Below are positions 5,189 through 5,509 of a stretch of 8,367 nt of DNA, piece by piece. Position 1 is the stretch's first letter. Every line of letters begins with the position of its first letter. This stretch comes from a virus. Its lineage: Monodnaviria; Loebvirae; Hofneiviricota; Faserviricetes; Tubulavirales; Inoviridae. Under the pieces are notes generated by a model. It ran no database searches. It was not told the origin of the DNA and saw nothing but the letters and a program-made list of their open reading frames with translations. Position numbers and translations under genes: made by a program. The DNA is taken from IMG/VR virus record IMGVR_UViG_2675903352_000001. One strand, 5' to 3'.

Positions 5189-5509
5189 TCAGGAAGATGC
5201 TGTTTTAAAGAGAGATTTAACTACGCGGAAACCAATCATTAAAGAAACGCCAAAGCCCAGTAAAAGAAATGCTGCGGTTCCCACCACGCCCAGCGTTGAC
5301 AAAATGGAGTTCACCACCGGGTCAATCATTTCTTTACTGATAACTGCCTGTCCGGGGGTATAACTCACATCATCAGCCAGAACAGGACCGGACGCCAGCA
5401 TCAGGGAAGATGCAGTGACCAGAGGTTTTTTTGCGAACGTCAGCACCCGGGAGGATGCAGTGACTACTGTTTTTTTTACGAACGTGACCGCTTTTTTAAA
5501 AAAAGACAT
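5189..5509 (-). CDS. pVIII-like major coat protein precursor (106 aa from ATG 5509)
   Basis: Predicted mature region ADDVSYTPGQAVISKEMIDPVVNSILSTLGVVGTAAFLLLGFGVSLMIGFRVVKSLFKTASS has the classic acidic N-terminus, hydrophobic core and basic C-terminus. SD AGGAG 8 nt upstream of ATG 5509. The 140-aa track ORF from 5611 is probably an over-extension. Confidence 0.8.
   Translation of the reverse strand: MSFFKKAVTFVKKTVVTASSRVLTFAKKPLVTASSLMLASGPVLADDVSYTPGQAVISKEMIDPVVNSILSTLGVVGTAAFLLLGFGVSLMIGFRVVKSLFKTASS
5396..5485. repeat. Imperfect 45-bp tandem duplication (2 units, 37/45 identical), in frame within the coat signal peptide
   Basis: Unit 5396-5440 against unit 5441-5485, encoding TFAKKPLVTASSLML and TFVKKTVVTASSRVL respectively. 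Confidence 0.8.

What the first reader, a model, noticed from the sequence alone, without database searches (positions are those of the whole stretch)
5396..5509. Major coat protein has an unusually long signal peptide built from a 45-bp in-frame tandem duplication
The predicted leader is about 45 residues (Ff pVIII has 23) and contains two consecutive 15-residue units, TFVKKTVVTASSRVL and TFAKKPLVTASSLML, encoded by two 45-bp repeats that are 82% identical. The hydrophobic core of the leader is weak. This could affect membrane insertion or expression level, or a downstream initiation codon may be the real start.
Basis: seen in the sequence. Interest (0 to 1): 0.5.

Follow-up and report, generated by a model that had tools for sequence, protein, structure and literature searches.

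The report
Duplicated leader on phage coat protein
The coat-protein gene of a filamentous prophage carries a real in-frame 45-bp tandem repeat that lengthens its export leader from 30 to 45 residues; this is a minority allele among related Escherichia prophages, probably leaves the mature coat unchanged, and is a modest curiosity.

Summary
On the minus strand, codons 9-23 (5485-5441) and 24-38 (5440-5396) of a 106-codon gene (5509-5189) are tandem 45-bp units, 37/45 nt and 10/15 aa identical; shuffles never exceed 28/45. The window is a dif-integrated inovirus prophage of Escherichia albertii.

Relatives are dimorphic: most carry one unit (30-aa leader, 91-aa precursor) and a minority carry two (45-aa leader). 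In complete E. coli genomes, 13 of 65 gene copies in 4 of 22 positive genomes have two units. Edwardsiella-type relatives have an ordinary ~22-23-aa leader. No three-unit form was seen.

The downstream unit matches the single unit of short alleles (1-2 nt differences). The upstream unit plus the first 8 codons form a 69-nt patch about 20% diverged within a 1-3% background.

ATG 5509 with its AGGAG is invariant in every allele read. The in-frame GTG at codon 22 has no Shine-Dalgarno motif, though some annotations use it.

The likely cleavage site, VLA|DD, lines up with AMA|A and AFA|V in relatives, so both alleles should give the same 61-residue coat.

I read it as an n-region extension (net charge +7 against +3) that is tolerated or mildly modulatory. 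This window's prophage is itself defective. Interest is low to moderate.

The parts
5189..5509 (-). Putative major coat (pVIII-like) precursor gene, 106 codons plus stop
   Evidence: ORF and translation. It is identical to E. albertii WP_059225487.1. PHROG 17608 matches residues 22-106. It sits between small g7/g9-like ORFs and a g3-like gene.
5519..5523 (-). Shine-Dalgarno AGGAG, 9 nt upstream of ATG 5509-5507
   Evidence: Read from the sequence. The block ACAGGAGTTATATATT-ATG is identical in every one-unit and two-unit allele read.
5486..5509 (-). Leader head, codons 1-8 (MSFFKKAV), containing a T7A6 run
   Evidence: Differs from the one-unit allele head (MSVREKAV) at 6 of 24 nt. It is part of the diverged 69-nt patch.
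5441..5485 (-). Repeat unit 1, codons 9-23 (TFVKKTVVTASSRVL): the diverged upstream copy, containing an A8 run and the in-frame GTG at 5446-5444
   Evidence: It has 7 nt differences from the single unit of short alleles. It is invariant in all 9 distinct two-unit leader variants seen.
5396..5440 (-). Repeat unit 2, codons 24-38 (TFAKKPLVTASSLML): supplies the KK that ends the n-region and the first part of the h-region
   Evidence: Only 1-2 nt differences from the single unit of short alleles. It shares their P/T and I/T polymorphisms.
5375..5395 (-). End of the h-region and the c-region, codons 39-45 (ASGPVLA); inferred leader-peptidase site after A45
   Evidence: V at -3 and A at -1. The site aligns in register with AMA|A (Edwardsiella type), AMA|A (P0035) and AFA|V (P0036).
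5192..5374 (-). Inferred mature coat, 61 aa: acidic N-terminus, hydrophobic core, basic C-terminus (R95, K98, K102)
   Evidence: Sequence. Hydrophobicity maximum lies around residues 80-94. AlphaFold2 predicts a helix at 59-105 with pLDDT 72-85.
5153..5168 (-). Terminator-like GC hairpin followed by a T-run, between the coat stop and the g3-like start
   Evidence: The position corresponds to the terminator after gene VIII in Ff phages (that comparison is from memory).

Best explanation
The gene encodes the procoat of a dif-integrated inovirus. Translation starts at ATG 5509. The first 45 residues are a cleavable leader, removed by leader peptidase after VLA45, which leaves a 61-residue alpha-helical coat protein. 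The leader is a derived 'long' allele. A 45-bp in-frame segment covering the n-region Lys-Lys and the first 10 residues of the h-region is present twice. Only the downstream copy, together with ASGPVLA, acts as the h/c-region. The upstream copy has lost hydrophobic character (Leu to Arg, Pro to Thr, Met to Val). With the altered head (VRE to FFK) it forms a 28-residue cationic n-region extension, net charge +7 against +3, that is weakly amphipathic. The mature coat is the same as from short alleles, so any effect falls on membrane targeting, insertion kinetics or coat supply, not on the virion. The allele is tolerated and persists. It arose either by slippage duplication followed by fast divergence of the upstream copy, or by out-of-register recombination between two diverged leader alleles in a tandem prophage array. 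Shown here: the repeat, the dimorphism, the conserved start signals, the register of the cleavage site, and the localised divergence. Inferred: the coat identity, the cleavage, and the lack of a strong phenotype.
For: Repeat. Phage context: Rep_trans, Zot and secretin domains, a g3-like gene and a dif site.

Dimorphism: one-unit alleles (30-aa leader) are the majority and two-unit alleles the minority. In complete E. coli genomes, 13 of 65 copies in 4 of 22 positive genomes carry the two-unit junction. Outgroups with ~22-23-aa leaders cannot be extended, because an in-frame stop lies 13 codons upstream with no start codon in between. One unit or fewer is therefore ancestral.

Start site: SD plus ATG is invariant in both alleles. 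Short alleles have GTT where long alleles have the GTG, so they must use ATG1. Every two-unit allele read in full keeps the frame open.

Cleavage and persistence: the cleavage-site register is conserved. The long allele occurs in prophages with full-length coat, g3, g6, Zot and secretin genes, in identical tandem copies, and with three different replication modules. That argues it is not decaying.
Against: No signal-peptide predictor and no experiment was available, so cleavage and use of ATG1 are inferred. The h-region is weak. The AlphaFold2 leader helix has low confidence, pLDDT 41-61. The protein matches no curated coat family. The 69-nt patch is about 20% diverged in a 1-3% background (Fisher p 3e-10). 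The upstream unit is invariant among long alleles. Both are as compatible with selection for a specific function as with mere tolerance. The window's own prophage is defective, so in this strain the allele may not be expressed in a productive cycle.
Confidence: 0.68

Rival explanations
1. Translation of the long allele really starts at the in-frame GTG (codon 22, 5446-5444). That would give an 85-aa precursor with a canonical 24-aa leader, MLTFAKKPLVTASSLMLASGPVLA. The upstream 63 nt would then be an untranslated relic.
For: Eight distinct database entries for long alleles are annotated from this GTG even though the upstream frame is intact. The resulting leader has a textbook length.
Against: No GGAG, GAGG or AGGA lies within 20 nt upstream of the GTG; the sequence there is GTAGTCACTGCATCCTCCCGG. 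AGGAG, a 9-nt spacer and ATG1 are 100% conserved. Short alleles have no start codon at the equivalent position and must use ATG1. Every long allele read in full keeps codons 1-21 open.
Confidence: 0.1
2. The long leader is a selected, functionally distinct allele. The doubled (K/R)-x-(V/L)-T-F-x-K-K motif would form a cationic amphipathic in-plane helix that changes the route or timing of procoat insertion, by analogy with extended signal peptides of autotransporters. Alternatively it could compensate for the weak h-region. It would be kept as a dimorphism beside the short allele.
For: There are two discrete haplotypes, each nearly invariant. They differ at 14/69 nt in the patch against 7/600 nt upstream. 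The upstream unit is invariant in 9 long-leader variants while the downstream unit varies. Both alleles co-reside in one tandem array. The long leader is found on several mature-coat and replication backgrounds. The hydrophobic moment of residues 2-28 peaks at 100 degrees (0.41, shuffle p 0.024). A distant relative conserves the KAV-x-F...KK motif in its own long n-region.
Against: The amphipathicity signal is modest. AlphaFold2 confidence for the leader is low. No difference in predicted accessibility of the translation start was found. The long allele is the minority and within E. coli complete genomes is confined to four strains of one Japanese series. The invariance may simply reflect a young allele.
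Confidence: 0.15
3. The gene is decaying. The duplication would be a lesion in a dead prophage with no role.
For: In this window Zot/pI is truncated by a 13-bp duplication and the secretin gene is split by a 1-nt deletion.
Against: The identical coat allele is found in E. albertii prophages with full-length Zot and secretin. Near-identical long alleles occur in E. coli prophages with all structural genes full length and in tandem multicopy arrays. The duplication is in frame and the frame is conserved.
Confidence: 0.05
4. The 45-bp repeat acts at the DNA or RNA level, for example as a protein-binding site, a packaging or regulatory element, or a slippage-prone switch at its A7/A8/T7A6 runs. 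Its coding effect would be incidental.
For: Three long homopolymer runs lie in the leader. One E. coli copy has an indel at the A-run that breaks the frame (L011:20318). In folds, the U7 and A8 runs can pair.
Against: There is no Rfam match. No stable structure specific to the long allele was found. The frame-breaking copy comes from one assembly that shows many broken ORFs elsewhere. Run lengths are otherwise constant in all alleles read. Short alleles lack the second copy and are the majority.
Confidence: 0.02

Closest known systems
Ff (M13/fd/f1) pVIII procoat
   Same: A small precursor with a cleavable N-terminal leader, an acidic mature N-terminus, one hydrophobic helix and a basic C-terminus. 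The gene lies upstream of g3 and is followed by a terminator-like hairpin. The M13 precursor is 73 aa, with a 23-aa signal peptide removed by signal peptidase after YidC-mediated insertion (PMC10480500).
   Different: No detectable sequence similarity. The leader is 45 aa against 23, with a 28-residue n-region containing a duplicated segment. The mature part is 61 aa against 50. The insertion pathway is untested.
One-unit (short) alleles of the same coat family in E. coli and E. albertii dif prophages (e.g. WP_001408028.1; PHROG 17608)
   Same: Same gene, same SD and ATG, same h/c-region and cleavage context, and a mature part with 1-3% nucleotide difference.
   Different: The leader is 30 aa with head MSVREKAV and a single unit. 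The window allele has an extra 45 bp and a 69-nt patch 20% diverged.
Extended signal peptide region (ESPR, PF13018) of autotransporters and two-partner secretion proteins
   Same: An N-terminal extension placed in front of an otherwise normal n-h-c signal peptide gives a leader of about 45-55 residues. From memory, the extension is thought to modulate targeting or translocation kinetics.
   Different: No Pfam ESPR match for the coat precursor. The extension here is a diverged copy of the protein's own n/h-region, not the conserved ESPR motif. An ESPR autotransporter gene happens to lie next to the prophage in the source contig, which is coincidental.
Pf1 major coat precursor (36-residue leader; figure from memory, not verified here)
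   Same: Shows that inovirus coat leaders well above 23 residues exist and work.
   Different: Unrelated sequence. I know of no report that its leader is built from a tandem duplication or is length-polymorphic.
dif/XerCD-integrating inoviruses (CTXphi of Vibrio cholerae, CUS-1 of E. coli, Ypf-phi of Yersinia; from memory)
   Same: A Rep_trans-type replication protein, a Zot-like pI, integration beside the chromosomal dif site, and tandem arrays.
   Different: No nucleotide or coat-protein match to any record in the phage collection searched. This lineage is uncharacterised. It carries its own secretin gene, which CTXphi lacks (from memory).

Membership tests
Inovirus major coat protein (pVIII-like) | Small protein, 30-90 aa after signal-peptide removal, with one transmembrane or hydrophobic helix (criterion used by Roux et al. 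2019, PMC6813254) | tested here: met
   The inferred mature part is 61 aa with a single hydrophobic stretch around residues 67-94. AlphaFold2 predicts a helix at 59-105 with pLDDT 72-85.
Inovirus major coat protein (pVIII-like) | Position in the structural module: after the ssDNA-binding gene and small g7/g9-like genes, before the g3-like adsorption gene, g6, pI/Zot and secretin | tested here: met
   Minus-strand order is Rep_trans 7374-6148, 113-aa ORF 6144-5803, 33-aa and 52-aa ORFs, coat 5509-5189, g3-like 5150-3780 (weak PHROG 'attachment protein' match), g6-like, Zot, secretin.
Inovirus major coat protein (pVIII-like) | Acidic N-terminal part and basic C-terminal part of the mature protein | tested here: met
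   D46, D47, E60 and D63 near the N-terminus; R95, K98 and K102 near the C-terminus.
Inovirus major coat protein (pVIII-like) | Sequence membership of a curated coat family | tested here: not met
   No Pfam hit at E <= 0.01. PHROG 17608 is 'unknown function'. No PDB sequence relative beyond chance. No tblastn hit in deposited phage genomes.
Inovirus major coat protein (pVIII-like) | Found as the abundant protein of virions | not testable with these tools
   Needs particle purification and mass spectrometry.
Sec/YidC-type cleavable signal peptide (signal peptidase I) | Positively charged n-region | tested here: met
   Residues 1-28 carry 7 Lys/Arg and no acidic residue.
Sec/YidC-type cleavable signal peptide (signal peptidase I) | Hydrophobic h-region of roughly 7-15 residues | tested here: inconclusive
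   LVTASSLMLASGPVL is the only hydrophobic stretch in the leader but it is weak: 9-residue KD maximum 1.89, against 2.26 for M13 and 2.47 for the common short allele. No trained predictor was available.
Sec/YidC-type cleavable signal peptide (signal peptidase I) | Small or neutral residues at -3 and -1, with no Pro at +1 | tested here: met
   V43-L44-A45 | D46. The same alignment column holds AMA|A, AMA|A and AFA|V in relatives.
Sec/YidC-type cleavable signal peptide (signal peptidase I) | Typical length of about 18-30 residues | tested here: not met
   45 residues in the long allele, 30 in the short allele and ~22-23 in Edwardsiella-type relatives.
ESPR extended signal peptide (PF13018) | Match to the ESPR profile | tested here: not met
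   No Pfam hit for the precursor.
Tat signal peptide or lipoprotein signal peptide | Twin-arginine motif (S/T-R-R-x-F-L-K), or a lipobox with Cys | tested here: not met
   There is a single Arg (R21) with no RR, and no Cys in the precursor.
dif/XerCD-integrating inovirus prophage | Prophage bordered by the chromosomal dif site | tested here: met
The E. coli copies lie beside hipBA in tandem arrays.

The most novel reading that the evidence does not exclude
The two leader forms would be a maintained dimorphism and not a neutral indel. The long form's doubled cationic TF-x-KK motif would make an in-plane amphipathic helix that alters how or when procoat enters the membrane, for example by changing YidC/Sec/SRP dependence or delaying cleavage. 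That could tune coat supply, or let co-resident tandem prophages with identical mature coats avoid competing for the same insertion step. It would be an ESPR-like extended leader that arose by self-duplication inside a phage coat gene.
Probability: 0.12. Interest if true: 0.5.

Novelty: new variant of a known kind. Interest (0 to 1): 0.25.

Why it matters
If the long leader is functional, it is a natural experiment on how much n-region a procoat-type leader tolerates, or uses. The matched short allele sits on nearly identical phage backgrounds, which suits swap experiments on YidC/Sec targeting and phage-display leader design.

It also has a practical annotation consequence. The same gene appears in databases as 85, 106, 127 and 150 aa. 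The coat family of these dif prophages, several of whose E. coli carriers I recognise from memory as ETEC, has no functional name.

Otherwise it is an ordinary allelic length variant with no expected effect on the virion.

Tried and rejected
1. Described phage or plasmid relatives. Megablast of the whole window and tblastn of the coat against deposited phages found nothing. The coat gene gave nothing in PLSDB plasmids. The genome-contig scan gave no confirmed relative.
2. Curated family assignment. Pfam, PHROGs and PDB sequence searches gave no informative coat match.
3. Translation-initiation effect of the altered head. Predicted unpaired probability of the SD/start region is 0.52-0.61 for the long allele and 0.50 for the short one. 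This gives no support.
4. RNA element. There are no Rfam hits.
5. A third copy or higher copy numbers. None appeared among about 70 proteins and about 35 loci. A resemblance between GTTCGTGAAAAA in the short-allele head and GTTCGTAAAAAA in the unit is out of frame (20-nt offset). A distant relative conserves the head motif at protein level, so I did not treat it as an earlier duplication.
6. A single-unit donor allele carrying TVVTASSRVL, which would prove the out-of-register recombination origin. None was found, but it cannot be excluded.
7. Diversity-generating retroelement. The unit differences are not adenine-specific, and none of the ten ORFs put through Pfam is a reverse transcriptase. 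Rejected.
8. Tat or lipoprotein leader. Rejected from the sequence.
9. AlphaFold2 of the precursor. The leader helix has low confidence, so I made no fold search.

Full report
**What the window is.** All phage genes lie on the minus strand. In order they are:
- a Rep_trans replication protein (7374-6148);
- a 113-aa ORF in the ssDNA-binding position (6144-5803);
- two small hydrophobic ORFs (5792-5691 and 5688-5530);
- the gene in question (5509-5189);
- a 456-aa g3-like gene with Gly/Asp/Asn-rich linkers (5150-3780);
- a 119-aa g6-like gene, a Zot/pI gene and a secretin gene.

A 27/28 match to the E. coli dif site lies at 415-442. The window is 100% identical to Escherichia albertii contig BBVQ01000057.1. 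Related prophages in E. coli sit beside hipBA in tandem arrays. This is therefore a dif-integrated inovirus prophage. It has no nucleotide or coat-protein match in the deposited-phage collection.

**The observation.** Tandem Repeats Finder finds a period-45 array at 5392-5485, with 2.1 copies, 81% matches and no indels. In the coding register the units are codons 9-23 (5485-5441, TFVKKTVVTASSRVL) and codons 24-38 (5440-5396, TFAKKPLVTASSLML). They share 37/45 nt and 10/15 aa. Shuffled windows never exceeded 28/45.

The protein search returned 15 clusters. One holds 106-aa two-unit forms and also contains the window protein. Eleven hold 91-aa forms lacking exactly one unit. Another holds a frameshifted two-unit gene from the 9.6-kb circular record. 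The last two hold 84-85-aa forms, including one from Edwardsiella tarda, with an ordinary leader, MSLKKVILSAIVLSAFSGSAMA.

- That short leader is real. An in-frame stop lies 13 codons upstream with no start codon in between, and a GAGG/GGGG motif precedes the ATG.
- An exhaustive profile search of 1.8 billion representatives found only four clusters. One has a leader of about 39 aa whose n-region contains KDKAVAFYRNKK, recognisably the REKAVTFVKK of the one-unit form.
- Across about 70 proteins the Escherichia clade shows only two leader lengths, 30 and 45 residues. No three-unit form appeared.
- At DNA level, all six IMG/VR contigs and three of four metagenome contigs carry one unit.
- In 5,426 complete E. 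coli genomes there are 65 copies of the coat gene in 22 genomes. Thirteen copies in 4 genomes carry the two-unit-specific junction at >=99% identity.
- Both alleles occur side by side in one tandem array, in strain JNE112863.

The two-unit leader is thus a derived minority allele, not the family norm.

**Anatomy of the difference.** The short allele reads ATG TCT GTT CGT GAA AAA GCA GTT followed by one unit. The long allele reads ATG TCT TTT TTT A(A/C)A AAA GCG GTC followed by unit 1 and unit 2.

- Unit 2 differs from the single unit at 1-2 nt and shares its P/T and I/T polymorphisms.
- Unit 1 differs at 7 nt, giving P to T, L to V, L to R, M to V and one synonymous change.
- The head differs at 6 of 24 nt, giving V to F, R to F, E to K and two synonymous changes.
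- Against a short allele on the same replication backbone, the 69-nt head-plus-unit-1 patch differs at 14 positions. The 600 nt upstream differ at 7, unit 2 at 2 of 45, and the rest of the gene at 6 of 207 (Fisher p 3e-10).
- Unit 1 is invariant in all nine long-leader variants.
- The mature N-terminal variants (DD...ISKE or EG...INQD) and C-terminal variants (KTASS or RMASS) occur with both leaders. The long leader also occurs with three different replication modules. The leader therefore behaves as a cassette that recombines.

The long allele is not a fresh duplication. Two origins fit: duplication followed by rapid change of the upstream copy and head, or an out-of-register crossover between two already diverged leader alleles in a tandem array. 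I found no single-unit allele with the unit-1 sequence that would prove the second origin. One E. coli copy (L011:20318) has the FFKK head, a single unit and a 2-nt insertion at the A-run. That shows unit loss also occurs, although the assembly concerned has many broken ORFs.

**Where translation starts.** AGGAG (5523-5519), a 9-nt spacer and ATG 5509 are identical in every allele read. The only other in-frame start candidate before the h-region is GTG at codon 22 (5446-5444). It is the unit-1 counterpart of Met37. It would give a tidy 24-aa leader, and eight database entries start there, at least one with the upstream frame intact. However, the 20 nt before it contain no Shine-Dalgarno motif. 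Short alleles have GTT at the equivalent site and so must use ATG1. I put the GTG start at about 10%. The longer upstream ORF from ATG 5611 overlaps the 52-aa gene and is a gene-caller artefact seen in some records.

**What the leader looks like.**
- Residues 1-28 carry seven Lys/Arg and no acidic residue. Net charge is +3 for the short allele and +2 for the Edwardsiella type.
- The only hydrophobic stretch is LVTASSLMLASGPVL. Its 9-residue KD maximum is 1.89, lower than 2.47 (common short allele), 2.80 (Edwardsiella type) and 2.26 (M13, sequence from memory).
- VLA45|D46 satisfies the -3/-1 rule. It falls in the same alignment column as AMA|A and AFA|V in relatives.
- Residues 2-28 have a hydrophobic moment that peaks at 100 degrees per residue (0.41; 2.4% of shuffles reach it).
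- AlphaFold2 draws a helix at 2-39 but with low confidence (pLDDT 41-61). It predicts a better-supported helix at 59-105 for the mature part.
- There is no twin-arginine motif, lipobox or ESPR match.

**Is it the major coat protein?** No curated family says so. The assignment rests on several features:
- the gene order;
- a 61-aa mature part with an acidic N-terminus, one hydrophobic helix and a basic C-terminus, which fits the size and TMD criterion of PMC6813254;
- the predicted long helix;
- a terminator-like hairpin (5168-5153) between its stop and g3.

I regard the assignment as very likely but inferred.

**Most likely mechanism.** By analogy with M13, whose 73-aa procoat has a 23-aa signal peptide cleaved after YidC-mediated insertion (PMC10480500), the 106-aa precursor would insert as a hairpin. 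Its cationic N-terminus and basic C-terminus would stay in the cytoplasm, and leader peptidase would cut after A45. The duplication adds 15 residues and two further Lys to the cytoplasmic n-region. Substitutions in the upstream copy, notably Leu to Arg, remove its h-region character, so only one h-region remains. The mature coat equals that of short alleles. Any consequence should therefore concern targeting or insertion kinetics or coat supply. I consider 'tolerated or mildly modulatory' most likely (confidence about 0.68) and a selected distinct function possible (about 0.15). Predicted accessibility of the translation start does not differ between alleles, and no RNA family matches.

**State of this copy.** Compared with 99.4%-identical E. 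albertii prophages, the window has a perfect 13-bp tandem duplication at 2439-2472 that truncates Zot/pI from 418 to 324 aa. It also has a 1-nt deletion near 1355 that splits the secretin gene. This copy probably cannot assemble particles unaided. The same coat allele occurs in copies with full-length Zot and secretin, and close long alleles occur in E. coli prophages with all structural genes full length.

**Verdict.** The finding is a length-polymorphic, self-duplicated procoat leader in an uncharacterised Escherichia inovirus lineage. That makes it a new variant of a known kind, of low to moderate interest. The sharply diverged but internally invariant 69-nt patch is the one feature that hints at more than neutrality.

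Noticed in passing
window 2439-2472 (Zot/pI gene, minus strand): A perfect 13-bp tandem duplication (GTGGTGGTTACCT, 2.6 copies) is absent from 99.4%-identical E. albertii prophages. It shifts the frame, so the Zot/pI ORF ends at 2436 (324 aa instead of 418).
   Followed up: yes
window ~1355 (secretin gene; ORFs 1199-2131 and 912-1352): A 1-nt deletion relative to relatives splits the secretin gene into two overlapping ORFs. Together with the Zot lesion, this makes the prophage copy assembly-defective.
   Followed up: yes
window 4786-4821 (g3-like gene): A CCATCA x6 repeat encodes a (Gly-Asp)n linker. The related E. albertii prophages carry about 30 nt more at this site, so the g3 linker also varies in length.
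   Followed up: partly
window 415-442, and 1-222: A dif site (27/28) marks the secretin-side prophage border. A Phd/YefM-type antitoxin gene (1-222, minus strand) lies just outside the prophage, followed in the source contig by a Fic gene and then an ESPR-type autotransporter.
   Followed up: partly
window 5492-5504, 5470-5477, 5426-5432: The leader contains T7A6, A8 and A7 runs (sense strand), one at each Lys-Lys. One E. coli copy (L011:20318) has an FFKK head, a single unit and a 2-nt insertion at the A-run that breaks the frame. It could be a real slippage product or an assembly error.
   Followed up: partly
window 5444-5446, and database entries P0017, P0023, P0029, P0041, P0045, P0049, P0066, P0068, P0028, P0031: Public annotation of this one gene is inconsistent. 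It is called at 106 aa (ATG), 85 aa (GTG codon 22) and 127 or 150 aa (upstream starts), always as 'hypothetical protein'. PHROG 17608 models only the 91-aa form.
   Followed up: yes
L003 (NZ_AP045060.1, pJNE25-005_3, 9,613-bp circular record): A record deposited as an E. coli plasmid is a genome of this phage type with the long leader allele and an ISEc31 insertion. It may be the replicative form. Many of its ORFs are broken.
   Followed up: partly
L010 (E. coli JNE112863) and L011 (JNE25-005), 40-kb stretches beside hipBA: Tandem arrays hold up to at least four prophage copies. They mix short and long coat-leader alleles and three different replication modules (Rep_trans, 'phage/plasmid replication domain' and a 660-aa 'replication endonuclease'). 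This is a mosaic family recombining in situ. I recognise several carrier strains as ETEC (E24377A, TW10573 and the 50xxxx series), but their pathotype was not checked here.
   Followed up: partly
window 5153-5168: A GC-rich hairpin followed by a T-run lies on the minus strand between the coat stop and the g3 start. That is the position of the gene VIII terminator in Ff phages.
   Followed up: no
window 7676-7891 and 7969-8367 (plus strand): These are the only sizeable ORFs on the opposite strand to the phage genes. The first, 71 aa, is Lys/Glu-rich. They lie beyond the replication gene, where repressor or regulator genes sit in related prophages. I did not analyse them.
   Followed up: no
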